Assembly (NCBI GenBank): GCA_021462855.1
Contig: JAJTXQ010000021.1
Span: 1,430 to 65,429 of the forward strand
From: Dehalococcoidia bacterium
GTDB lineage: Bacteria > Chloroflexota > Dehalococcoidia > DSTF01 > JACRBR01
Reading direction: 5' to 3'
DNA: 64,000 bases
The translations under genes were made by a program, and so were the position numbers. This document shows, piece by piece, positions 26,575-50,103 of this stretch (positions within the stretch are counted from its first letter, which is position 1; each line of letters begins with the position of its first letter). The notes under the pieces are model-generated. The model saw nothing but the letters and a program-made list of their open reading frames with translations. It ran no database searches and had not been told where the DNA came from.

Positions 26575-28329
26575 CTAGAACAGGCCCTGCTTTTGCGCCT
26601 TCGAGAGCAGCTTGAACAGCTCGTAGAAGTTGGCGACGCCGGAGTCGCCGAGCTTCTGCAGCAACGCGCCGCGACGGTCGACTTCCTTGTAGATCTGCCG
26701 CCGCTTCTTCTCGGACAGGCCGCGCGCCGGCGCGATGCGCTGCTCCAGGATGTAGCTGTTGTTCAGCCCGACGAACTCGAACACGTCGTTCACCGGGTCC
26801 CAGCGGAAGATCTCGACGAACGAAAAGGAGTTCGTCGAGGGATCGTAGCCGATGATCTCCGAGATGCTGAGGATGCGGCGGCCGGGCTTGCCGTTCGGCA
26901 GCCGCACCGCGCTCGCAATGACGACGACGTTCAGGTTGTCCACGTACGTCTTCGGCACGTTGATCGGCGCGCCGGTGACACGCTGGATCAGCTTCTCGAC
27001 CGTCGCGGCGTGGAACGTCGCGCACACGGCGTGGCCGGTCATCATCGCCTGGAACGCGATGTTGCCCTCCTCGCCACGGATCTCACCGATGATGATCATG
27101 TTCGGGCGCTGGCGCAGCGCGGCCTTCAGCAGGCTGAACATGTCGACGCCGCCGCCCTGCGCCGACTGGCCGCGGATCACCTCGCGGGTCCAGTTCGGGT
27201 GCGGCACCTGCACTTCCGGCGTGTCCTCGATGCTCACGATCTTCGCCCACGGCGGGATGAACGTCATCAGCGCGTTCATCAGCGTCGTCTTGCCCGAGGC
27301 CGTCTCGCCTGACACGAAGAAGTTGAGCCCCTCCTCGACGACCAGCGACAGGTAGCCGGCCATCTGCCACGTCAGCGCGCCCGAGTTGCAGATGTCGACG
27401 ATGCTGAGCGGGACGCCCATGAACTTGCGGATGGTGAAGTTGGAGCCGTTCTTCGACACATCGCCGCCGTAGACGATGTTGATACGCGAGCCGTCGGGCA
27501 GCGTGGCGTCGACGATCGGGTTGCGGAAGGTCACCGGCTTCTTGATCTTCTCGGCGAGCTTCAGGACGAAGTCGTCGAGCTCCTCGTGCTGGTCGAAGGT
27601 GATGCTGCTCTTCAACCCCTTGAAGATCTTGTGCTCGATGTACACCGGGCCGAGCCCGCTGCACGAGATGTCCTCGATCCAGTTATCGGAGATCAGCGGC
27701 TCGAGCGGGCCCATGCCCACCTTGTCGCGGATGACGGCGTACTTCAGCGCCTCGAGCTCGGACTGCGTGAGCTTGATCTTGCCGCCCCTGGCGCCGGACT
27801 TGCTGCCGCCGAACGGCAGCTTCAGGAAGCCCGCCTCACCGTCCTTTACGTTCGGCTTCGGCGCAGCCGGCGCGTCGACGACGTCGCAGCTGTCGTCGAT
27901 GGCCTGGAGCAGCCCCAGCGTCTTCTCCTCCGGCGTCGTCGCCTCGGCGAGGATCTCGACGAAGTCCAGCAGGAGGAACTCCATCTGCTCCAGCAAGTCG
28001 CCCATCGCGTCGGACCCGGGCTCGATGGCGATGTAGAAGTTCCGCGCCTCGGCGTTGTCCGGGAAGATGTGGATGAACGTGTTGTTGCCGACCGGGTAGA
28101 TCAGGTTCGGGTCCTTGAGGTCGCCCAGCTTGCGGTTGGCCTCCGGGTAATAGTCCGGCACGCCGTACTCCTGCATCGGCACCTTGTGCAGGTACGTCAT
28201 CAGGTGCGGCGCCGCCTCGGCCTGCTCCCGCAGCTCGGGCGAGAGGATGTTGTGCAGCGGGCACTGCGCGGCGCCACGCGAGTGGTCGTCGATCTCGGCA
28301 GGCGCATCGAACGGCAGGCGCTGCGGCAT
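26575..28329 (-). CDS. Archaeal-type secretion ATPase, ArlI/FlaI-like (type II/IV secretion NTPase superfamily)
   Basis: Walker A (VSGETASGKTT) and the TadA/FlaI N-terminal motif (ATLPDGSRINIV...FTIRKF). Archaeal-type signature (LLKAALRQRPNMIIIGEIRGEEG) and a FlaI-like C-terminal extension (…FRWDPVNDVFEFVG…). Confidence 0.75.
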   Translation of the reverse strand: MPQRLPFDAPAEIDDHSRGAAQCPLHNILSPELREQAEAAPHLMTYLHKVPMQEYGVPDYYPEANRKLGDLKDPNLIYPVGNNTFIHIFPDNAEARNFYIAIEPGSDAMGDLLEQMEFLLLDFVEILAEATTPEEKTLGLLQAIDDSCDVVDAPAAPKPNVKDGEAGFLKLPFGGSKSGARGGKIKLTQSELEALKYAVIRDKVGMGPLEPLISDNWIEDISCSGLGPVYIEHKIFKGLKSSITFDQHEELDDFVLKLAEKIKKPVTFRNPIVDATLPDGSRINIVYGGDVSKNGSNFTIRKFMGVPLSIVDICNSGALTWQMAGYLSLVVEEGLNFFVSGETASGKTTLMNALMTFIPPWAKIVSIEDTPEVQVPHPNWTREVIRGQSAQGGGVDMFSLLKAALRQRPNMIIIGEIRGEEGNIAFQAMMTGHAVCATFHAATVEKLIQRVTGAPINVPKTYVDNLNVVVIASAVRLPNGKPGRRILSISEIIGYDPSTNSFSFVEIFRWDPVNDVFEFVGLNNSYILEQRIAPARGLSEKKRRQIYKEVDRRGALLQKLGDSGVANFYELFKLLSKAQKQGLF

Positions 28330-28335
28330 CGGCGG

Positions 28336-29049
28336 TCAGGCCTTTGCGCTCGACACGGGGATGATGCGCATGCCGAGTCCCGGCTCGACATCGAAGTTCA
28401 CGATGTTGCCGGTCGTCTTTTCCGCGCCGCGGACCTTCGCCACTTCCAGCACCTTCATCAGCACGTCGCGCACTTCCTCGGTGCGGAGGCGCAGGTGCGC
28501 GTCGCACAGCGAGCGGATGCGCATGAACATCGCTTCCTCGAACGCGTGCGAGTGCATGGTGAAGAAGACGGTCATGTTGTTGTCCACGTACTCCTTCACC
28601 GACGTGAGGAACGACAGCGTCTGTGACTCGGGCACCTGCGACACGAACGACGTCAGCGAGTCGAGGAACACGCAGTCGAAGCGCCCCTCCAGCGTGCCGA
28701 TGTGGTCGAGCAGCTTGTGGAACGCCGTGTCGGCCGCCTCCGGCGTCATCGCGGCGGGCACCGGGTACACGTTGAACGTGCCGAGCAGGAAGAAGTCCGT
28801 CACGTCGAGGCTCAGGCTCGCCATCTGGCGGAACAGGCTGCGAGACGTGTTCTCGGTCGTGTAGAGCACGCAGCGGAACCCGCCGTTCAGCGCGCCGTGG
28901 ATGAGCTGTTGCGTGATCACGCTCTTGCCCGCGTTCGACGAGCCTTCGATGAGGATCAGCGACCCCTCGGGGATGCCGCCGCCCATCTTCTTGTCGATCT
29001 CCGTGCTGCCGGTCGACACGACGCGTCGCTCGGCGAGATCAATGCTCAT
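28336..29049 (-). CDS. KaiC/RecA-fold ATPase, ArlH/FlaH-like
   Basis: ATG with GGAGG 8 nt upstream (MSIDLAERRVVSTGSTEIDKKMGGGIPEGSLILIEGSSNAGKS). FlaH-like downstream block (YTTENTSRSLFRQMASLSLDV…YPV). 237 aa. The longer ORF N-terminus is an artefact. Confidence 0.65.
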   Translation of the reverse strand: MSIDLAERRVVSTGSTEIDKKMGGGIPEGSLILIEGSSNAGKSVITQQLIHGALNGGFRCVLYTTENTSRSLFRQMASLSLDVTDFFLLGTFNVYPVPAAMTPEAADTAFHKLLDHIGTLEGRFDCVFLDSLTSFVSQVPESQTLSFLTSVKEYVDNNMTVFFTMHSHAFEEAMFMRIRSLCDAHLRLRTEEVRDVLMKVLEVAKVRGAEKTTGNIVNFDVEPGLGMRIIPVSSAKA

Positions 29050-29279
29050 GGTCGCGGCCTCCAGCCCGATCGCGCGCATACGACAGCGCGCCGCCCGGCG
29101 CAGGGGCGCGGGCTCACTGACATTGTCGGCGCGGCGCCCGGCAAAAGGCAGGTGCGCGCACCCGCGAGATGCGCCCGCCGAATCGAACATCGGGGCGCCG
29201 CCACGCGGGCGTGCGGGGCCCGCGCGGCGCGTGCCGGGCGGTTCCCCTACGGGAGGCGCTTCCGTAGACTCATCGCCAT

Positions 29280-30701
29280 ATGCCATCGAATCTGCCGGAC
29301 AGCGTGTTCTCGCCTCGCAGCGTGGCGGTTGTCGGCGCATCGTCGAACCCGGATAGCCCGGGCCACGACTACGTCAAGGCGATCATCGAAGCCGGCTTCA
29401 CCGGCCCGCTCTACCCGATCAACCCGCGCGCGCCCGAGATCATGGGGCTGCCAGCCTACCCCGCGTTGTCCGCGGCGCCGGGCGACGTCGACCTCGTGAT
29501 CTCGTGCATCCCCGCCGACGGCGTGCTGGCGCTGATCGAGGAAGCGCGCGCGAAACGCGCGACGACGCTGCACCTGTTCACCGGCCGGTTCAGCGAGACC
29601 GGCGACCGCGACGCCGCCGCGCTCGAACAGCGCGTGAAGCAGGCCGCGCGCGATGCGGGCATCCGGATCATAGGGCCGAACTGCATGGGCGTGTTCGATG
29701 CGCGAAGCGGGCTCTCGTTCCGGCCCGACCTGCCCCGGGCCGATGGCGGCGACGTCGCGTTCATCTCACAGAGCGGCAACAACTCGGTCGAATTGATGCT
29801 GCACGGCGCGGCGCGCGGCCTGCGGTTCAGCAAGGTCGTCAGTTACGGCAACGCACTCGACCTCAGCGAGGCGGACTTCCTCGACTTCCTCGCGGCCGAC
29901 GACGCCACCCGCGTGGTCGGCGCGTACATCGAGGGTGCGACGGACGGGCGGCGCCTCCTCGACGCATTGCGCTCGTGCGCGGCGGCGAAGCCGGTCGTCG
30001 TGCTGAAGGGCGGGCGCACCGGCGCCGGTTCGCGCACCGCCGCCTCGCACACGGCGGCGCTCGCCGGGCAGCGGCAAGTATGGAGCGCCGTGCTGAAGCA
30101 GGCCGGCGCCGTCGAAGTCGAGACGTTCGACGACCTCATCGACATGCTCGTCGCGTTCGCGTTCCTGCGCCCGGGCGCCGGGACGAACGTCGGCGTCGTC
30201 GGCGGCGGCGGCGGGCGCGCCGTGCAGTCCGCGGATGTCTGCGAAGAGGCGGGGTTGCGCGTGCCGCGCCTTCCCGGCGCCATCCGCGCCATGTTGCGCG
30301 AGAAGGCGCCGCACCTCGCGGACTGGGTCGACAACCCGGTCGACCAGTCGATCCTCGCGGGCAGCGGCGTCTCCGGCGCCCGCGTGCTGGAGATGATGCT
30401 CGATGCGCCGGAGTTCGATGCGCTCATCGCCAACGTCGGCGAAGACTGGGTGCTCGGGCGCCCCGACGCGATCGAGCGGATGGCGCACCTCGTCGACCGG
30501 TTCGCCGCGATCGGCGTGAAGGCGGACAAGCCGATGGCATTCGTGCTCGGCCCCGCCGATTCGCCCGACGAGACGAAGTGGCGCGCGGTCGAGGGCGGAA
30601 AGCAACGGCTCACCGACGCCCGGCTCGCCGTGTACCCGAGCGTCGACCGCGCCGCGTCGGCGGTGGCGCGGTTCGTCCGCTTCCATGCCGGGCGCGCGTA
30701 G
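29280..30701 (+). CDS. CoA-binding acetate--CoA ligase (ADP-forming) alpha-like protein, with no beta/ATP-grasp partner in the window
   Basis: CoA-binding Rossmann motifs (SVAVVGAS, IIGPNCMG) plus succinyl-CoA-synthetase-like flavodoxin domains (VVVLKGGRTGAG). Confidence 0.7.
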   Translation: MPSNLPDSVFSPRSVAVVGASSNPDSPGHDYVKAIIEAGFTGPLYPINPRAPEIMGLPAYPALSAAPGDVDLVISCIPADGVLALIEEARAKRATTLHLFTGRFSETGDRDAAALEQRVKQAARDAGIRIIGPNCMGVFDARSGLSFRPDLPRADGGDVAFISQSGNNSVELMLHGAARGLRFSKVVSYGNALDLSEADFLDFLAADDATRVVGAYIEGATDGRRLLDALRSCAAAKPVVVLKGGRTGAGSRTAASHTAALAGQRQVWSAVLKQAGAVEVETFDDLIDMLVAFAFLRPGAGTNVGVVGGGGGRAVQSADVCEEAGLRVPRLPGAIRAMLREKAPHLADWVDNPVDQSILAGSGVSGARVLEMMLDAPEFDALIANVGEDWVLGRPDAIERMAHLVDRFAAIGVKADKPMAFVLGPADSPDETKWRAVEGGKQRLTDARLAVYPSVDRAASAVARFVRFHAGRA

Positions 30702-40185: not shown

Positions 40186-41895
40186 TTACCCGCCTTCGGT
40201 GATGCGCGCTCGCGCCATCTGCACGATGCGCAGGGACTGCTGCGACGCGATGCCGAAGCGCTCGAGCGAATGGCGCGCGAGCTCGAACGCGGCTTCGCGC
40301 TCGGCGATGACGGGCCGGTCAACCCCGGCCTGCATGAGCTTCCGCGCTTCATCCGTGTTCGCGGCGCGGCACACGATGTCGACGTGCGGGTTGCGCGCGT
40401 GCGCTCGCTCGGCGAGCAGCCGCGCCGCGAACGCGTCATCAACGGCGATCACGAGCAGGCGCGCGTTCTCCAGCTCCATGCGGTCGATGGTCGCCGGACT
40501 CGCCAGGCTGCCCTCGATCACCGTGAAGCCGCGCTCGCGCGCCGTCCGGGCCGCCCGCGCATCGTCCTCGACGATGACCGTCGAGAAGCGCGGCGCGACG
40601 ACCGCGGCGACGATCTGGCCGACCTCGCCGTACCCGCACACCACGGCGTTGTGCCCCAGGTACGCCGGACGCGGGTGCGGCTCCGCCGCGTGCTCGCCGC
40701 GGGACCGCAGCAGCGCGTAGCGCACCCCGGCGATCGCCAGCGTGCTGACGACGATCGAGATCGCCGCGGCGGCGATGATCGCGCTGAACGCATCCTCCGA
40801 GATGCGGCCAGCGTCGAGTCCTGCCGCGGCGATCAGGAAGGCGTACTCCGCCACGGGCACGAGCGCGGCCGCCGCCAGCACCGCCGTGTGGGGGCGCGTG
40901 TACAGCGCGAGCAACGCGCCCGAGATCGCCGTCTTCACGCCCACGATCATGACCACGCCGAGCAAGACGAGCGCCCACTCGTCGATCAGCACGGCGGGGT
41001 CGATCAGCGTGCCGGCGGCGACGAAGAACAGCACGGCAAACACGTCGCGCGTCGGCAGCAGTTCGCCGAGGACGCGGTGCGAAAGGTCGGATTCGGAGAC
41101 GACGAGCCCCGCGACAAACGCGCCGAGGGCGATCGACAGCCCCGCCCAGTCCGACACGAGCGCCGTTCCGATCGCCAGCGCGGCGATGGCGATGACGAAC
41201 AACTCCCGCGAGCGCTCCTCGGCGACGCGCGCCATCAGGAACGGCACCACGCGCACCCCGAACGCCAGCGCGCCGACGACGAACGCCACCGTCGCAGCGG
41301 CGGCGATCAGCAGGTCGAGCGCCAGTGTCTCGCCCTCGCCCTGGCTGCTGAGCATGACGATGAGCAGGATGCCCCACAGGTCCTGCACGATCGCCCAGGC
41401 GACGGCGGTGCGCCCATGCGCCGACGCCAGGTCGCCGTCGCGTTCCAGCAGCTTCACGATGACGACGCTGCTCGAGATCGACGCCGCCGCGCCGACGTAC
41501 AGCGATGTCTCCGCCGAGAACCCCGCGACGACGCCCACACCCACCGCGACGCCGATCACCGCCCCGACCTGCGCGCTGGCCGCGGCCGCCACCTTCCACC
41601 CGGCGCGCAGCAGGTCGGACACCGAGAACTGCACGCCGACCGCGAACAGCAGCAGCACCACGCCGACATCGGCCAGGCGGCGCAGGCGGTCGAGGTCGCC
41701 GCTGTAGCCCGGCGTGAACGGTGAAATCACCAGTCCGGCGGCGATGTACCCGATGATCGAGGAGAAGCCGAGACGCGTCGCCAGCCACCCGCCGGCGAGT
41801 GCCACCGCGAGCGCGATGCTGATGTCGACGAGCAGCGAACTGTCGCCTTCCAACGCCCTGATTGTAGCCGGAACCGGATCAAACCCCGGAATCAC
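40186..41895 (-). CDS. Kef-type cation:proton antiporter with C-terminal RCK/TrkA-N domain. Start uncertain.
   Basis: Na+/H+ exchanger membrane domain of about 380 aa, then a Rossmann GxGxxG (VVCGYGEVGQ). No clean SD-plus-start pair; candidates are GTG at 41895 or TTG at 41853. Confidence 0.75.
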   Translation of the reverse strand: MIPGFDPVPATIRALEGDSSLLVDISIALAVALAGGWLATRLGFSSIIGYIAAGLVISPFTPGYSGDLDRLRRLADVGVVLLLFAVGVQFSVSDLLRAGWKVAAAASAQVGAVIGVAVGVGVVAGFSAETSLYVGAAASISSSVVIVKLLERDGDLASAHGRTAVAWAIVQDLWGILLIVMLSSQGEGETLALDLLIAAAATVAFVVGALAFGVRVVPFLMARVAEERSRELFVIAIAALAIGTALVSDWAGLSIALGAFVAGLVVSESDLSHRVLGELLPTRDVFAVLFFVAAGTLIDPAVLIDEWALVLLGVVMIVGVKTAISGALLALYTRPHTAVLAAAALVPVAEYAFLIAAAGLDAGRISEDAFSAIIAAAAISIVVSTLAIAGVRYALLRSRGEHAAEPHPRPAYLGHNAVVCGYGEVGQIVAAVVAPRFSTVIVEDDARAARTARERGFTVIEGSLASPATIDRMELENARLLVIAVDDAFAARLLAERAHARNPHVDIVCRAANTDEARKLMQAGVDRPVIAEREAAFELARHSLERFGIASQQSLRIVQMARARITEGG

Positions 41896-41967
41896 CCTCC
41901 AGGCTCCAACAGGTCCGCGCCCGCGTGCCGAGATCGAAGGTGGGAGCAGAAGGGGCCAGGGGTATCC

Positions 41968-42774
41968 ATGCGCTCGTACATGGCCGAAGTGCGCGACACG
42001 CGCACGTTCGCGCAACTCTTCGATGATGCGATGGCGACGCTGCGCCAGGACAATGCCGAGTACGGACTGATCGGCATCACCGGCGGCGTGATCGCGGCGA
42101 TGATGGCGCTCGTCATGCGCACCGCCGGCGGGCCGCTCGTGGTCGCGGCGATCGTGCCGTTCGTGGCGCTCGTCGCCCTGCTGACGCTGGCGACGACGAC
42201 CGCCGCCCTGCGCCGCGTCGACGAGAACCTGCCGCCGGATGCCTCTCGCGCGCTGCTCGGCGCCGTCGTGCGGCTGCCGTTCATGCTCGTGCCGCTCGGC
42301 CCGCCCATGCTGATCGCCTTCGCGTCGGTCGTCGCCGCATCCTACGCCGGCCGCTACGTGCCCGACGCACTAGCGTTCGCAGGGGGTACCGCGCTCGTGC
42401 TGGTCTCTGCCGCCGCCGCGTTCCGCTACGCGTTGTTCGTCCCGGCGCTATTCGCCCGCGGGTCGAGCGCGCGCGCCGCCGCGCCGTTAAGCGAGCAGAT
42501 GATCGCCGGCGCCCGCCTGCGCGTGGCGATGGCGTGGCTGCTGCCGCTCGCGCCCGCGCACCTCATCGCCCTCGTATCCGCGCTGCTCGGGTTCGGCGTC
42601 ATGTCGAGCGGGCTCACCGCGTTCGCGTACGCCGCCTCCATGCCGCTCGTGGCCGCCGTCTCGTGGATGCAGTACCAGCAGCTGGAGCGTTACGCCGACG
42701 TCGCGACGCCCGCGCCCGCGCCCGTCCGCGGCCCCCCCGCCGTCTCCGAGCGACTCACGAGGCACGTACGGTAG
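41968..42774 (+). CDS. Hypothetical membrane protein, at least 6 TM segments
   Basis: Hydrophobic helices throughout. No family motifs recognised. Confidence 0.45.
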   Translation: MRSYMAEVRDTRTFAQLFDDAMATLRQDNAEYGLIGITGGVIAAMMALVMRTAGGPLVVAAIVPFVALVALLTLATTTAALRRVDENLPPDASRALLGAVVRLPFMLVPLGPPMLIAFASVVAASYAGRYVPDALAFAGGTALVLVSAAAAFRYALFVPALFARGSSARAAAPLSEQMIAGARLRVAMAWLLPLAPAHLIALVSALLGFGVMSSGLTAFAYAASMPLVAAVSWMQYQQLERYADVATPAPAPVRGPPAVSERLTRHVR

Positions 42775-42862: not shown

Positions 42863-43291
42863 TTAGCGGCGGATGCTGCTGACGCGGCGGCGGCGGTTCT
42901 CGGCGATGCGCAGGCGGATGAGCGCGCGCTGCAGCGCCGCGGCGGCCAGCGCCAGGTCCTCGGTGCCCTCGCGCCGCTCGAGCGCGACGCGCGCGCGCTC
43001 CCGCGCCGCTTCCGCCCGGGCGACGTCGATCTCGTCGGCCCGCTCGGCGGCGTCAGCAAGCACGATCACACGGTCGTTCAGCACCTCGAAGTAGCCGCCG
43101 GTGATGGCGAACGGGAGCTCCTCGGCGCCCTTCTTGAGGATCAGTTCGCCGGGCTCCAGCAGCGTCATGAACGCCGCGTGCCTGGGCAACACGGCGAACT
43201 GGCCCTCGGCGCCGGGCGCGATCACCTCGTCGATGCCACTCTCGGTAAGCATCGTCTTCTCGATGGTCACGATCTCGACGGTCAGCGGCAT
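42863..43291 (-). CDS. atpC: F0F1 ATP synthase subunit epsilon
   Basis: Typical epsilon beta-sandwich plus helical hairpin; last gene of the atp operon. Confidence 0.85.
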   Translation of the reverse strand: MPLTVEIVTIEKTMLTESGIDEVIAPGAEGQFAVLPRHAAFMTLLEPGELILKKGAEELPFAITGGYFEVLNDRVIVLADAAERADEIDVARAEAARERARVALERREGTEDLALAAAALQRALIRLRIAENRRRRVSSIRR

Positions 43292-43311
43292 GTGCGCGCC
43301 TCGATCCTCGC

Positions 43312-45584
<2,273 letters not shown>

Positions 45585-45608
45585 GCCTTACTCGCTTCTC
45601 GCCGCCGC

Positions 45609-47156
<1,548 letters not shown>

Positions 47157-47696
47157 CTATGCGGTGCGGATGCGGCGCTTGAGCGCCAGCAGCCGTGAGC
47201 GCGTGCTGCCATCGATCAGGTGGTCGCCGATGCGGGCGACCAGGCCGCCCATGATCGCCGGGTCGACGACCGCGGTGACGTCGACCCGCTTGCCGGTGAC
47301 CTGCGACAGACGCTGCTCGACCGCGAGCCGTTCGTCATCGCTGAGCGCGACGGCCGTCGTCACGACGGCGTGCGCAAGGCCGCGGCGATCGTCGGCCATC
47401 TCCAGGAACGCCTGCTGGATCTGCGGCGCGAGCGCGAGCTTGCCCCGGTCCTCCAGCAACCGCACGAGGTTCATCGCCAGCGGGCTGACGTTGCCCTCGA
47501 GCGCCGCCGTGAGCAGGCGCATCTTCTCGGCGCGCGGGACGCGGTTGCTCCCGAGCAACGCCCCCGCCTCGCGGTCGCCCACCAGGTCGGTGAGCGCGCG
47601 CAGGTCGTGCGACCACGCGTCGAGCGTGTTCGACTCGTCGGCGATGCTGAAGACCGCCTCCGCGTAGCGCCGCGCCGAAGCCGAGCGTGCCGGCAT
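47157..47696 (-). CDS. atpH: F0F1 ATP synthase subunit delta
   Basis: OSCP-like 179-aa protein in the operon position between atpF and atpA. Confidence 0.8.
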   Translation of the reverse strand: MPARSASARRYAEAVFSIADESNTLDAWSHDLRALTDLVGDREAGALLGSNRVPRAEKMRLLTAALEGNVSPLAMNLVRLLEDRGKLALAPQIQQAFLEMADDRRGLAHAVVTTAVALSDDERLAVEQRLSQVTGKRVDVTAVVDPAIMGGLVARIGDHLIDGSTRSRLLALKRRIRTA

Positions 47697-48212
47697 CTAG
47701 TTCTTCTCCCTGAAGCTGGACTCCGCCAGCGCTTCCTGGATGAGCCGCGCGTGCGACTGCCGGTCGAGCGAGCTGTTGATCACCTTCTCGGCGGCGGCGA
47801 TCGTCAGGTCGCCGAACTCCCGCCGCAGGTCGGCGATCGCCGCGTCGCGCTCGAGCTGGATCTCGTTGCGCGCCCGGGCGAGTGTCGCCTCGGCGTCGGT
47901 CTGCGCCTGCGTGCGCGCATCGGCCGTGATGCGGTTGGCGATCTCCTGCGCCTGCGCGACGAGCGTCTGCCCCTCGCGCCGGGCCGCTTCGATCTGCTCC
48001 TGCACCACGCGTTCGCTCTCGGCCGCCTGCGCCTTCATGCGGTCCGCGCTCGAAATGCCTTCGGCGATGCGCTCGCGGCGCTCGTCGAGCATCTTCATCA
48101 GCGGCCCCCAGGCGACCAGGCGCAGCACGACGAGCAGGATCGTGAAGTTCACCAGCTGCGCGACGAGCACGGGCAGGTTGATTCCCAGGTCAGCTATGCC
48201 GAGGATGATCAT
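47697..48212 (-). CDS. atpF: F0F1 ATP synthase subunit b
   Basis: N-terminal TM helix followed by a long charged coiled coil. Confidence 0.8.
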   Translation of the reverse strand: MIILGIADLGINLPVLVAQLVNFTILLVVLRLVAWGPLMKMLDERRERIAEGISSADRMKAQAAESERVVQEQIEAARREGQTLVAQAQEIANRITADARTQAQTDAEATLARARNEIQLERDAAIADLRREFGDLTIAAAEKVINSSLDRQSHARLIQEALAESSFREKN

Positions 48213-48266
48213 CGTTCACTCCAGACGGCGCACCCGCGGGTGCGGATGCACGACGGCTCCGCGCTG

Positions 48267-48530
48267 CTAGAACACGAAGCCGATCATCACCGCCACGACC
48301 AGCGCGTAAATCGCGATGGCCTCGGCGAACGCGATGCCCAGGATCATGTTGGTCTGGATGACCGGCTGCGCTTCCGGGTTGCGGCCGAGCGCTTCCATCG
48401 CCTTGCCGGTGAGCATGCCGATCGCCAGCGCGGGCGCGAGTCCGCCGACGCCGATCGCCAGGCCGGCGCCGATGTACTTGAGTCCCGCGTCGGTGAACGC
48501 GAGCAGTGGCAGAATGAATCCGAGCTCCAA
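48267..48530 (-). CDS. atpE: F0F1 ATP synthase subunit c
   Basis: TTG start with AAGGAGG 6 nt upstream. Helical hairpin carrying the conserved carboxylate motif (AFAEAIAIYALVVA). The longer ORF N-terminus is spurious. Confidence 0.75.
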   Translation of the reverse strand: MELGFILPLLAFTDAGLKYIGAGLAIGVGGLAPALAIGMLTGKAMEALGRNPEAQPVIQTNMILGIAFAEAIAIYALVVAVMIGFVF

Positions 48531-48605
48531 CTTCGTCCTCCTTCGTCGCCCGATCGTCGGGCGCTTGTCTCCCTGTGTCACCCCCGCCGGGCGGAGGCGT
48601 AACCC

Positions 48606-49859
48606 CTAGTGTGTCGCCGGAATGTGCGCTCCCTCGAGCGGCAGGTCCGGGATGTTGTCGTGCCCCTGCTCGTCGTCGTGGCCCTCGTGCGAGCTCACCG
48701 CGAGCACCGCGAACACCAGCGTGAGCATGGCAAACACGAACGCCTGGATCGCGCCGACGAACACCTCGAGCCCGTAGAACGGCAGCGCGACCAGGAATGG
48801 CGCCAGGAACGTCATCACCAGCAGCAGGATCTCGCCCGCCAGCATGTTGCCGAAGAGCCGGAACGTGAAGCTGATGATGCGCGCGATCTCGGCGATGAAC
48901 TCCAGGATGCCGACGAAGAAGTAGATCGGGCTGCTGAAGTTCAGGAACTTGCCGGCGTACTTGAAGAACCCCAGCGCCGTGATCCCCCAGAACTCGATGA
49001 AGATCAGCGCCATGATCGCGATCGACAGCGGGGAGTTGATGTCGGTGTTCATGCTCCGCAGGTACGGGATGACGATGCCGATCTTCTTCCCGTCCGCGTC
49101 GAGCTTCGCGCGCGCCTCTTCGGCGTGCTCAAGCTTGATGTCCGTCTCGCACACTTCCTTCTCGTGGTCGTGCAGGTCCTCGCACGCCGACGTGTCGACC
49201 TTGATGCCGGCGGCCTTCGCGAGCTGCGCGTCGATCGCGCGCTCGCGCTCATGCTCGATGCAGTCCTTCTTCGCTTCCTTGAGCTCCGCGGTGTCGTGCC
49301 CGGCGGCCTTCGCCTCGTCGATCTCATCGTCGATCGGCGCGCAGGCGGCCTCGTCGACATGGAACTCGATCTCGCCCTGGCCTGGCATGATGAAGCCGAT
49401 GCCCGCCGTCTCGCGCAGCACTGTCGCCTCGTGGTGGAAGTGGTGCGCCGAAACTTCCTGCACCTTGCCGATCGAGAGGAAGCCCGGCAGCAGCGCCATC
49501 CAGTTCGCGATCCAGATGTAGACGAAGATCGTCGCGATGACGGGGAAGAAGCGGCGAGCGTTCTTCTCGCCCGCCGTCGTGATGCAGATGTTGTACAGCG
49601 CCTCGGCCACGCCTTCGATGACGTTCTGGAGGCCGCCCGGCACCATGTTCAGCTTGCGCAGCCCGAAGTACGTCACCGCGCACAGCATGATCACGACGAG
49701 CACCGACGTCACGTAGGTGTTGAGCAGCGGGAAGAAGCCGATGTCCGCGAGCTTCTCGCCCTTGATCTCGATGATCGGCTTGGGGCTCTGGAAGAACAGG
49801 AAGCCGACGGCGAGAAGCACCAGTGCGCCGGCTGCGATCGCGATCGTCTTGAAGTTCAA
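48606..49859 (-). CDS. atpB: F0F1 ATP synthase subunit a, carrying a roughly 125-aa Cys/His-rich charged insertion and a His-rich C-terminal extension
   Basis: Conserved blocks (FVYIWIANWMALLPGF…[insertion]…IPYLRSMNTDINSPLSIAIMALIFI; LFGNMLAGE with the essential Arg region). 417 aa, against about 230-280 for typical a-subunits. Confidence 0.8.
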   Translation of the reverse strand: MNFKTIAIAAGALVLLAVGFLFFQSPKPIIEIKGEKLADIGFFPLLNTYVTSVLVVIMLCAVTYFGLRKLNMVPGGLQNVIEGVAEALYNICITTAGEKNARRFFPVIATIFVYIWIANWMALLPGFLSIGKVQEVSAHHFHHEATVLRETAGIGFIMPGQGEIEFHVDEAACAPIDDEIDEAKAAGHDTAELKEAKKDCIEHERERAIDAQLAKAAGIKVDTSACEDLHDHEKEVCETDIKLEHAEEARAKLDADGKKIGIVIPYLRSMNTDINSPLSIAIMALIFIEFWGITALGFFKYAGKFLNFSSPIYFFVGILEFIAEIARIISFTFRLFGNMLAGEILLLVMTFLAPFLVALPFYGLEVFVGAIQAFVFAMLTLVFAVLAVSSHEGHDDEQGHDNIPDLPLEGAHIPATH

Positions 49860-49863
49860 CCCG

Positions 49864-50103
49864 TCACTTCTTCCCGGCCCGCTCGCGGTTCCATCGGTTG
49901 ATATCCGCGATGGTCTCCATCAGCATGCGATAGCCGCCGTAGAACGCGGCCACCAGTCCGAGAGCGAGCCCGCTGAGCGTGAGAATCCTGCCCGTGCCGA
50001 GGGCGTCATCCAGGACGTACCCGCCGATAGCCCCACCGGCGATGCACGTCGCCACGTACGACCCGAGGCCCAGGAGCCGGACTGCGGGGGTCAGGCGGTA
50101 CAT
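49864..50103 (-). CDS. AtpZ/AtpI-like small membrane protein
   Basis: 79 aa with two hydrophobic helices, GGAGG RBS, immediately upstream of atpB. Confidence 0.5.
   Translation of the reverse strand: MYRLTPAVRLLGLGSYVATCIAGGAIGGYVLDDALGTGRILTLSGLALGLVAAFYGGYRMLMETIADINRWNRERAGKK

What the first reader, a model, noticed from the sequence alone, without database searches (positions are those of the whole stretch)
49074..49451. ATP synthase a-subunit carries a roughly 125-residue Cys/His-rich charged insertion in the loop after its second conserved helix
The a-subunit is 417 aa. Between the conserved blocks …LLPGFLSIGKVQEV and IPYLRSMNTD… lies an insertion with four Cys (AACAP, KKDCIEH, TSACEDLHDHEKEVCETD), His clusters (SAHHFHHE) and many Glu/Lys. 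The C-terminus is also His-rich. This could form a metal-binding or redox-sensitive regulatory domain on the Fo stator.
Basis: seen in the sequence. Interest (0 to 1): 0.55.

Follow-up and report, generated by a model that had tools for sequence, protein, structure and literature searches.

The report
Folded outer domain on ATP-synthase a-subunit
The membrane a-subunit of this uncultured Chloroflexota bacterium's ATP synthase carries a real, conserved extra domain of about 130 residues on the outer face of the membrane, held by two optional disulfide bridges; it is a much larger version of a short loop insertion already seen in Chloroflexus and is probably not a metal or redox switch.

Summary
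atpB (48606-49859, minus strand, 417 aa) has about 133 extra residues (132-264) between helices aH3 and aH4, with four Cys, ten His and net charge -17. It is not an artefact, because all 120 closest homologues (55-84% identity, Dehalococcoidia/Chloroflexota MAGs) carry a 99-168 aa loop there.

The Chloroflexus aurantiacus cryo-EM structure (PDB 9itj, PMC12002316) has a shorter insertion at the same site. That insertion lies on the periplasmic surface, is partly disordered and is closed by a disulfide.

AlphaFold models the window's insert as a confident fold (pLDDT 89-98): a beta base plus two helical hairpins. It has no PDB or Pfam analogue and occurs only in a-subunits.

- **Cysteines:** they occur in two pairs (4, 2 or 0 per protein, never odd). 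Each pair changed at least 12 times on a tree, and 23/120 proteins have none. This indicates two dispensable structural disulfides (C173-C200, C226-C237).
- **Histidines:** the His cluster alternates with Glu-Glu.

A conserved metal or redox switch is therefore not supported. My best reading is a disulfide-stapled ectodomain near the proton-inlet mouth, perhaps a proton-collecting cap; the function is inferred. It is a new variant of a known kind, of moderate interest.

The parts
48606..49859 (-). atpB, F-type ATP synthase subunit a, 417 aa (TTG start, stop at 48606-48608)
   Evidence: ORF. Pfam PF00119 scores 136.6 bits against a cutoff of 33.9, in two stretches. The best PDB match is Chloroflexus aurantiacus subunit a, 9itj_T, E=1.9e-56. 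R334 (FRLFGN), E343 and E320 are invariant in 120 homologues.
49068..49466 (-). Inserted extracytoplasmic domain, residues 132-264, in the aH3-aH4 linker (the finding's 49074-49451 is residues 137-262)
   Evidence: It lies between the two Pfam stretches. It aligns to the Chloroflexus linker Pro127-Pro187, which is on the periplasmic surface. AF2 pLDDT is 89-98 over residues 131-260. It is present in all 120 homologues. The insert-only profile finds only a-subunits among 1.84e9 representative proteins.
49356..49466 (-). Beta 'base' of the domain, residues 132-168 (modelled strands 131-135, 144-151, 154-156); it includes the HH/EE motif
   Evidence: AF2 secondary structure. This is the best-conserved part of the insert, with median 43% identity and a conserved hydrophobic core: V133 V136 A138 F141 A145 V147 F148 I157 F166. 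Confidence drops when the insert is modelled alone (pLDDT 59-76), which suggests it packs on the rest of subunit a.
49431..49445 (-). His cluster H139 H140 F141 H142 H143
   Evidence: Read directly from the sequence. The cluster is not conserved: positions 139/140 are HH in 53 and EE in 56 of 120, and position 142 is H in 72 and K in 36.
49212..49355 (-). Helical hairpin 1, residues 169-216 (helices 170-185 and 191-216), clamped by the inferred disulfide C173-C200 (codons 49341-49343 and 49260-49262)
   Evidence: AF2. C173 and C200 are present together or absent together, with spacing mostly 22-27; in a few sequences the first Cys sits at another position and the count stays even. There are at least 12 independent 0<->2 changes. 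R205, A208, I209 and L213 are conserved.
49092..49211 (-). Helical hairpin 2, residues 217-256 (helices 231-244 and 246-255), with the inferred disulfide C226-C237 (codons 49182-49184 and 49149-49151)
   Evidence: AF2. The pair is present or absent together, with spacing 11-13. This module is missing in about a quarter of clade members and in the shorter intermediate forms P0127, P0139 and P0140.
49068..49091 (-). Return strand G257-I264 (DGKKIGIVI) leading into aH4
   Evidence: G257, K258, L260 and G261 are nearly invariant. The GKK motif is shared with Chloroflexus (G177 K178 K179). AF2 models a strand at 258-265.
49722..49784 (-). N-terminal extracytoplasmic beta-hairpin, residues 26-46 (PKPIIEIKGEKLADIGFFPLL), the probable partner of the insert's beta base
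   Evidence: P26 K27 P28 E31 I32 E35 G41 are invariant in 120 homologues. AF2 models strands at 36-40 and 43-46, between TM helices 3-22 and 47-68. The pairing with the insert is inferred, because the model coordinates could not be inspected.
48609..48695 (-). His-rich acidic C-terminal tail, residues 389-417 (SSHEGHDDEQGHDNIPDLPLEGAHIPATH), inferred to be on the cytoplasmic side
   Evidence: H391 and H394 are conserved in at least 90% of homologues. The tails have a median of 5 His and a median length of 28 aa. AF2 pLDDT is below 50. Chloroflexus ends in GHDEEHAH.
42863..50103 (-). Complete canonical atp operon, in this order: atpZ/I-like (49864-50103), atpB, atpE (within 48267-48581), atpF (47697-48212), atpH (47157-47696), atpA (45609-47120), atpG (44721-45584), atpD (within 43312-44880), atpC (42863-43291)
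   Evidence: ORFs. Pfam hits: PF09527, PF00137, PF00430, PF00213, PF00231, PF00006/PF02874 and PF02823/PF00401.

Best explanation
The segment is a lineage-specific, autonomously folding extracytoplasmic domain inserted into the aH3-aH4 linker of F-type ATP synthase subunit a. It is an enlarged, ordered version of the short, partly disordered, disulfide-closed insertion described in Chloroflexus aurantiacus.

Anatomy (shown, or modelled with high confidence):
- a beta-strand base (residues 132-168 plus the return strand 257-264), which probably packs against the conserved N-terminal outer hairpin (residues 26-46);
- two helical hairpins on top of it (169-216 and 217-256).

Each hairpin is stapled by one disulfide, C173-C200 and C226-C237. 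This is inferred from strictly paired gain and loss of the cysteines. The disulfides stabilise the fold outside the cell and are dispensable, because a fifth of relatives have none.

Function (inferred, about 35% on its own): the periplasmic ends of aH3-aH6 surround the entrance of the proton-inlet half-channel, so the domain sits as a cap beside or over that entrance. In this organism its strongly acidic, His-rich surface (net -17, 10 His) would act as a proton-collecting and buffering antenna. It could also shield and stiffen the stator on the outer face.

It is not a conserved metal centre or a thiol redox switch.
For: - **Real and conserved.** All 120 homologues carry it. Codon usage matches the host.
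- **Same site as a known insertion.** The Chloroflexus insertion lies at this site, on the periplasmic surface.
- **Folded.** AF2 pLDDT is 89-98 in the full-length model and 84 (pTM 0.73) for the insert modelled alone. A hydrophobic core is conserved.
- **Under purifying selection, but looser than the membrane core.** Median identity is 28-43% in the insert against 88% in the core.
- **Disulfides.** Cys counts are 4, 2 or 0 and never odd. All four pair-presence combinations occur. When one Cys moves to another position its partner is kept. Each pair shows at least 12 independent 0<->2 changes.
- **Graded size series.** The linker runs from about 32 aa (L014), to 61 aa Pro127-Pro187 (Chloroflexus), to intermediate fragments whose inserts I read by eye at roughly 65-80 aa (P0139, P0140, P0127), to 99-168 aa in this clade. 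Apart from L014, which aligns only over its last few loop residues, the forms share the beta base and/or the GK..G..P.FR return.
- **Position of the inlet channel.** The inlet half-channel is centred on the Glu equivalent to E343 and is entered from the periplasmic ends of the aH3-aH6 bundle.
Against: - The functional step is not tested.
- Surface charge and His content vary widely across the family: net charge 0 to -36, His 0 to 10. The four-Cys subfamily has a median net charge of only -4.5. A proton-antenna role cannot be a family-wide property.
- The model coordinates could not be inspected. Cys-Cys distances and the domain's position relative to the channel mouth are therefore unverified.
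- AF2 packed the membrane part poorly: TM-score to 9itr is about 0.2-0.3, and aH5-aH6 is drawn as one long helix.
- In Chloroflexus, reducing the loop disulfide had no effect on activity, so the loop may matter little for catalysis.
Confidence: 0.6

Rival explanations
1. One reading: the Cys and His residues form a metal-binding or thiol-redox regulatory module that tunes Fo activity.
For: This protein has 4 Cys and 10 His in 133 residues, including a SAHHFHHE cluster. His and Glu, which alternate at positions 139/140, are both metal ligands. Cys-free relatives are the most acidic and His-rich (median net charge -25, 6 His), which could mean that cation binding replaces the disulfides. Metal sites on subunit a are known elsewhere: the Pseudomonas aeruginosa C-terminal cap and a proposed Zn site in Polytomella.
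Against: No Cys or His of the insert is conserved across the clade, and 23/120 homologues lack all the Cys. The Cys behave as two independent pairs, not as a four-ligand site. The location is extracytoplasmic, away from thioredoxin-type control. DTT had no effect on the Chloroflexus enzyme. No Pfam, NCBIfam or PDB metal-domain match was found.
Confidence: 0.12
2. The domain is a tolerated expansion of a permissive surface loop. It has no role in catalysis or regulation and is constrained only to fold well enough not to disturb assembly.
For: Loop length varies continuously from about 30 to about 170 aa across Chloroflexota. Whole modules and both disulfides are repeatedly lost. The helical part is only 28% identical across the clade. 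The Chloroflexus version is disordered.
Against: Every one of 120 clade members, down to 55% identity, retains it. The hydrophobic core and several polar positions are conserved: E165 is E/D in 117/120, K258 is K in 117/120, and R205 is R in 101/120. AF2 confidence is very high. Cys partners are maintained through at least 12 changes per pair.
Confidence: 0.2
3. The domain is a docking surface. It would contact another ATP synthase, a second a-subunit across the c-ring as in the two-stator Chloroflexus enzyme, or the cell envelope of these bacteria.
For: It is a surface-exposed folded domain with a fast-evolving surface. The nearest solved relative has the unusual two-a-subunit, two-stalk architecture.
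Against: The delta subunit here is full length: 179 aa, aligned over residues 7-175 to Bacillus PS3 delta. It is not the shortened delta-N that the Chloroflexus authors link to two stalks; Chloroflexus delta is 157 aa and matches only residues 68-177. No partner gene is evident in the operon. The domain is found in no other protein.
Confidence: 0.08

Closest known systems
Chloroflexus aurantiacus F1Fo subunit a, insertion His142-Thr172 in the aH3-aH4 linker with the Cys135-Cys173 disulfide (PDB 9itj and related entries; PMC12002316)
   Same: It is the closest solved homologue (E=1.9e-56). Both proteins have extra sequence at the same site in the aH3-aH4 linker, which is periplasmic in Chloroflexus. 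Both linkers are acidic and His-containing and carry disulfide-forming cysteines. They share the GKK...P.FR return segment, the conserved N-terminal outer hairpin, and a His-rich C-terminus.
   Different: The window's linker is about 85 residues longer (P125-M270 against P127-P187). It is predicted to be an ordered beta-plus-helical domain, not a largely disordered loop. It has two internal disulfides rather than one at the loop base, and Ca-Cys135 aligns with Val133 here. The window's delta subunit lacks the shortened N-domain that the authors associate with the two-stalk, two-a architecture.
Lineage-specific loop extensions of bacterial a-subunits, for example the Acinetobacter baumannii N-terminal insertion and aH4-aH5 loop (PMC8849298)
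   Same: These are clade-restricted additions to a conserved a-subunit core. They lie near the proton channel entrances and, in A. baumannii, relocate the periplasmic entry site.
   Different: The Acinetobacter aH4-aH5 loop extension is a 12-residue motif and the other addition is an N-terminal insertion; both sit at different positions. Neither is a folded domain of about 130 residues with disulfides.
Chloroplast gamma-subunit redox loop (disulfide-regulated ATP synthase)
   Same: It is a Cys pair inside a lineage-specific insertion of an ATP synthase subunit (described).
   Different: The gamma loop is on the stromal/cytoplasmic F1 side and is thioredoxin-accessible. The insert studied here is on the outer face of Fo, and its Cys pairs are dispensable in relatives.
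Pseudomonas aeruginosa subunit a C-terminal metal cap of the cytoplasmic half-channel (PMC12796488)
   Same: It is a His/Asp-containing C-terminal tail of subunit a on the cytoplasmic side. The window's tail has conserved H391 and H394 plus further His, Asp and Glu.
   Different: This comparison concerns the C-terminal tail, not the insert. The ligand set (E182, H186, D287, H289 with the N288 insertion) was reported as specific to Pseudomonas. No equivalence was tested here.

Membership tests
F-type ATP synthase subunit a (Pfam PF00119 / TIGR01131) | Profile match above the curated threshold | tested here: met
   PF00119 scores 136.6 bits against a cutoff of 33.9. TIGR01131 scores 102.2 against 102.6, marginally below, because the insert splits the match.
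F-type ATP synthase subunit a (Pfam PF00119 / TIGR01131) | Essential stator Arg on aH5 and the channel carboxylates | tested here: met
   R334 in FRLFGN, E343 (equivalent to Ca-E258, the inlet) and E320/E324 (equivalent to the Ca-E235 region) are invariant or nearly invariant in 120 homologues.
F-type ATP synthase subunit a (Pfam PF00119 / TIGR01131) | Encoded in an atp operon next to the c and b subunits | tested here: met
   The order atpZ-a-c-b-delta-alpha-gamma-beta-epsilon on the minus strand, 42863-50103, is confirmed by Pfam.
Chloroflexus-type a-subunit with aH3-aH4 linker insertion | Extra sequence in the periplasmic aH3-aH4 linker | tested here: met
   Residues 132-264 lie between the segments that align to Ca P127 and Ca P182/P187. 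The periplasmic location is taken from the cryo-EM paper.
Chloroflexus-type a-subunit with aH3-aH4 linker insertion | Cys135-Cys173 disulfide closing the base of the loop | tested here: not met
   Ca-C135 aligns with V133. The window's Cys are internal (173, 200, 226, 237). Ca-C173 falls in the C200 column in one MAFFT alignment only, and that region aligns uncertainly.
Chloroflexus-type a-subunit with aH3-aH4 linker insertion | Insertion largely disordered | tested here: not met
   AF2 pLDDT is 89-98 with defined strands and helices. This is a prediction only.
Two-stalk / two-a-subunit F1Fo architecture (CaF1Fo) | Shortened delta N-terminal domain (about 20 residues missing) | tested here: not met
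   The window's delta is 179 aa and aligns over residues 7-175 with Bacillus PS3 delta residues 6-175. Chloroflexus delta (157 aa) matches only residues 68-177.
Two-stalk / two-a-subunit F1Fo architecture (CaF1Fo) | Stoichiometry a2 b4 delta2 in the assembled enzyme | not testable with these tools
   This needs a purified complex or a cryo-EM structure.
Thiol-redox-regulated ATP synthase element (chloroplast gamma type) | Conserved regulatory Cys pair on the thioredoxin-accessible (N) side | tested here: not met
   The Cys pairs are absent in 23/120 homologues and individually lost in others. The site is on the P side.
Cys/His metal-binding domain | Conserved set of liganding Cys/His, or a match to a known metal-binding family or fold | tested here: not met
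   No Cys or His of the insert is conserved. There is no significant Pfam, NCBIfam, PDB-sequence or Foldseek match.
Intein or mobile insertion | Hint/intein motifs, foreign composition, or absence from close relatives | tested here: not met
   There is no intein family hit. GC3 is 0.92 against 0.96 in the flanks. The insert is present in all 120 relatives.

The most novel reading that the evidence does not exclude
The ectodomain is a functional outer-face accessory of the Fo proton inlet. It would be a disulfide-stapled, acidic and His-rich proton-collecting lid that raises local proton availability, or gates entry to the inlet half-channel, and so adapts these Chloroflexota to low or fluctuating proton-motive force. 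That would be the first dedicated extracytoplasmic domain of a bacterial Fo stator with a role in proton delivery. Its fold has no analogue in the PDB.
Probability: 0.2. Interest if true: 0.7.

Novelty: new variant of a known kind. Interest (0 to 1): 0.42.

Why it matters
Bacterial a-subunits are usually minimal membrane proteins. The only described insertion at this site, in Chloroflexus (2025), was called unique and is mostly disordered. A whole clade of uncultured Chloroflexota has turned that loop into an ordered domain of about 130 residues, stabilised by disulfides and lying next to the proton inlet.

This gives a concrete target for structural work on non-model ATP synthases. It also offers a natural size series (about 30, 60, 65-80 and 100-170 residues) for asking whether the outer face of Fo can tune proton access. 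Finally, the strict even-number rule for the cysteines is a clean sequence-only marker of extracytoplasmic topology.

The finding does not change the understanding of rotary catalysis, and no function has been demonstrated.

Tried and rejected
- **Artefact, frameshift or intein: rejected.** An identical protein exists in public data, all 120 homologues carry the loop, codon usage is host-like, and there are no intein motifs.
- **Known domain: none found.**
  - Pfam and NCBIfam on the insert gave only noise, for example PUMA_CC at E=0.14 and a ferritin-like hit at E=0.07.
  - Scanning 28 insert sequences against Pfam found no recurrent family; a single SapB_1 hit at E=0.12 was disregarded.
  - phmmer against PDB sequences gave zero hits at E<=10.
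  - Foldseek of the insert-only model against the PDB gave a best E of 0.54.
- **Domain elsewhere: no.** The insert profile, searched against 1.84 billion representative proteins, found only a-subunits and fragments. Two long repetitive proteins (P0124, P0125) were treated as compositional noise.
- **Whole-protein Foldseek.** It recovered the Chloroflexus a-subunit, but with poor TM-scores of 0.2-0.3. AF2 draws aH5-aH6 as one helix, so the membrane part of the model was not used for geometry.
- **Two-a-subunit architecture as context.** The delta-N criterion is not met.
- **Organism identity.** The window has no rRNA, tRNA or Rfam feature.
- **Intermediate form.** A search seeded with P0127 found only five further fragments.
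- **Literature.** Searches found no description of the large insert.
Full report
**1. What is in the sequence**

The window is about 70% G+C. On the minus strand, 42863-50103, it carries a complete atp operon in the order atpZ/I-like, a, c, b, delta, alpha, gamma, beta, epsilon.

The a-subunit gene is 48606-49859 (TTG start, 417 aa). Pfam ATP-synt_A matches at 136.6 bits, but in two stretches separated by a long unmatched segment.

The finding's coordinates, 49074-49451, are residues 137-262.

The full extra segment is residues 132-264. It has 4 Cys, 10 His, 33 acidic and 16 basic residues.

**2. Not an artefact**

- The segment is in frame.
- Its GC3 is 0.92, against 0.96 in the flanks and 0.94 in neighbouring atp genes.
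- The identical protein is in public data, and more than 120 homologues at 55-84% identity are 390-450 aa long. Those that carry a name are labelled Dehalococcoidia or Chloroflexota MAGs.
- In an alignment of 120 sequences, the G131-P265 loop is 99-168 aa in every one.
- No intein or other family matches the insert.

**3. Where it sits**

The nearest solved structure is Chloroflexus aurantiacus subunit a (9itj chain T, E=1.9e-56). The paper describing it (PMC12002316) reports a "unique insertion" (His142-Thr172) in the aH3-aH4 linker (Pro127-Pro187). That insertion lies on the periplasmic surface, is partly disordered, and is closed by a Cys135-Cys173 disulfide. DTT did not affect integrity or ATP synthesis.

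The window's insert aligns to the same linker: P125 matches Ca P127, and P265 matches Ca P182. It is therefore extracytoplasmic by homology, and about 85 residues longer than the Chloroflexus version.

The periplasmic ends of aH3-aH6 surround the proton-inlet half-channel, which is centred on the Glu equivalent to E343 here. The domain should therefore lie at or beside the inlet mouth. This is an inference.

**4. It is a folded domain**

With the 120-sequence alignment, AlphaFold2 gives pLDDT 89-98 across residues 131-260, higher than for the membrane core. The modelled elements are:
- strands 131-135, 144-151, 154-156 and 258-265;
- helices 170-185, 191-216, 231-244 and 246-255;
- strands 36-40 and 43-46 in the conserved N-terminal outer segment.

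Modelled alone, the helical part stays confident (pLDDT 88-95) while the beta part drops to 59-76. This suggests that the beta base packs against the rest of subunit a.

Conserved positions form a hydrophobic core (V133, V136, A138, F141, A145, V147, F148, I157, F166, A208, I209, L213, A249, L253, L260). A few polar residues are also conserved (E165, R205, K258).

Median identity to the window is 88% in the C-terminal membrane core, 43% in the beta part and 28% in the helical part. That pattern fits an exposed soluble domain under real but looser constraint.

**5. Cysteines**

Across 120 homologues the insert has 4 Cys (68 sequences), 2 Cys (29) or 0 Cys (23), and never an odd number.

C173 and C200 appear or vanish together, as do C226 and C237. 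All four presence/absence combinations occur. Where one Cys has moved to another position, its partner is retained.

On a neighbour-joining tree built from the core region, each pair needs at least 12 independent 0<->2 changes.

This is strong sequence evidence for two separate disulfides, consistent with an extracytoplasmic location. It also shows that they are dispensable staples, not a conserved catalytic, metal or switch site.

**6. Histidines and charge**

Positions 139/140 are HH in 53 sequences and EE in 56. Position 142 is H in 72 and K in 36.

Insert net charge ranges from 0 to -36 (median -10) and His from 0 to 10 (median 4). Cys-free forms are the most acidic and His-rich (median -25, 6 His). 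Four-Cys forms are nearly neutral (median -4.5, 2 His).

The window protein is an uncommon hybrid: four Cys, HH, net -17. Only 7 of 120 combine HH with four Cys. The inverse relation between disulfides and acidity is unexplained.

**7. Distribution and origin**

A profile of the insert alone, searched against 1.84 billion representative proteins, found 11 hits. All the credible ones are a-subunits or fragments of them. The domain exists nowhere else, and the clade collapses to a handful of 50%-identity clusters.

| Form | Linker or insert size | Features |
|---|---|---|
| Related Dehalococcoidia MAG (L014) | about 32 aa linker | acidic, no Cys |
| Chloroflexus aurantiacus | 61 aa linker | partly disordered, one disulfide |
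| Fragments P0139, P0140, P0127 | roughly 65-80 aa insert (my reading of the sequences) | beta base, one Cys pair, one helix |
| Window clade | 99-168 aa | a second helical hairpin with a second Cys pair is added |

The insert therefore looks like a stepwise elaboration of a permissive Chloroflexota loop.

**8. Comparison with known folds and families**

Foldseek of the insert model against the PDB gave nothing better than E=0.54. There were no PDB sequence hits and no Pfam family.

The delta subunit here is full length and aligns end to end with Bacillus PS3 delta. Chloroflexus delta is the shortened form that its authors link to two stalks and two a-subunits. There is thus no sequence sign of that unusual architecture here.

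**9. Interpretation**

*Shown:* a genuine, clade-conserved insertion at the same linker site as the Chloroflexus insertion, which is periplasmic in that structure. Paired cysteines that indicate two dispensable disulfides. A non-conserved His cluster.

*Modelled:* a beta base with two helical hairpins, in a fold without a known analogue.

*Inferred:* the domain caps or flanks the proton-inlet mouth. In this lineage its acidic, His-rich surface may collect or buffer protons. Because the surface chemistry varies so much between relatives, a purely structural or near-neutral role remains a serious rival.

**10. Verdict**

This is a new variant of a known kind: the Chloroflexota aH3-aH4 linker insertion, here grown into an ordered disulfide-stapled domain. 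Literature searches found no description of it. Interest is moderate. It is a good target for structural biology, but no function has been demonstrated.

Noticed in passing
window 48609-48695 (-), subunit a residues 389-417: The tail is acidic, His-rich and predicted to be disordered (SSHEGHDDEQGHDNIPDLPLEGAHIPATH). H391 and H394 are conserved in at least 90% of 120 homologues, the median is 5 His per tail, and Chloroflexus ends in GHDEEHAH. In Pseudomonas aeruginosa the a-subunit C-terminal tail caps the cytoplasmic half-channel through a His/Asp/Glu metal site (PMC12796488), so a comparable cytoplasmic cap is a lead.
   Followed up: partly
alignment A2 of 120 a-subunit homologues (insert columns): Disulfide content and acidity are inversely related. 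Cys-free inserts have median net charge -25 and 6 His, two-Cys inserts -22 and 6 His, and four-Cys inserts -4.5 and 2 His. HH at positions 139/140 goes mostly with 0 or 2 Cys, and EE with 4 Cys. This may reflect habitat (oxic or anoxic) or alternative stabilisation by cations. It is unexplained.
   Followed up: partly
window 26575-29340 (-): A KaiC-like ATPase (334 aa, PF06745) lies directly upstream of a T2SSE-family secretion ATPase (584 aa, PF00437). This is the arrangement of the archaellum ArlH/ArlI pair. A paper title and abstract seen in the search results (PMC12488501, not read) reports archaellum clusters in Chloroflexota. No ArlJ-sized gene follows; only a 140-aa Ala/Glu/Pro-rich ORF lies downstream.
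   Followed up: partly
window 40186-42015 (-): A Kef-type cation/proton antiporter (Na_H_Exchanger plus TrkA_N, 609 aa) lies downstream of atpC on the same strand, after a gap of about 850 bases that holds an uncharacterised plus-strand ORF (41968-42774). It may be relevant to pH or ion homeostasis around the ATP synthase.
   Followed up: no
window 48267-48581 (-), atpE: The mechanical ORF for subunit c is 104 aa, but the Pfam c-subunit match starts at residue 37. The true start is probably an internal GTG or TTG, giving a protein of about 70-76 aa.
   Followed up: no
window 47157-47696 (-), atpH: The delta subunit is full length (179 aa) and most similar to Bacillus PS3 delta. The shortened delta-N domain reported as common to Chloroflexi (Chloroflexus, Roseiflexus, Oscillochloris) is therefore not universal in the phylum.
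   Followed up: yes
loci L012 and L013 (MFD long-read MAGs): The a-subunit genes in these two MAG loci appear frameshifted. L012 loses frame near the C-terminus, and L013 has no ORF of 250 aa or more across the match. Assembly errors are the likely cause, and these loci should not be used for loop-length statistics.
   Followed up: no
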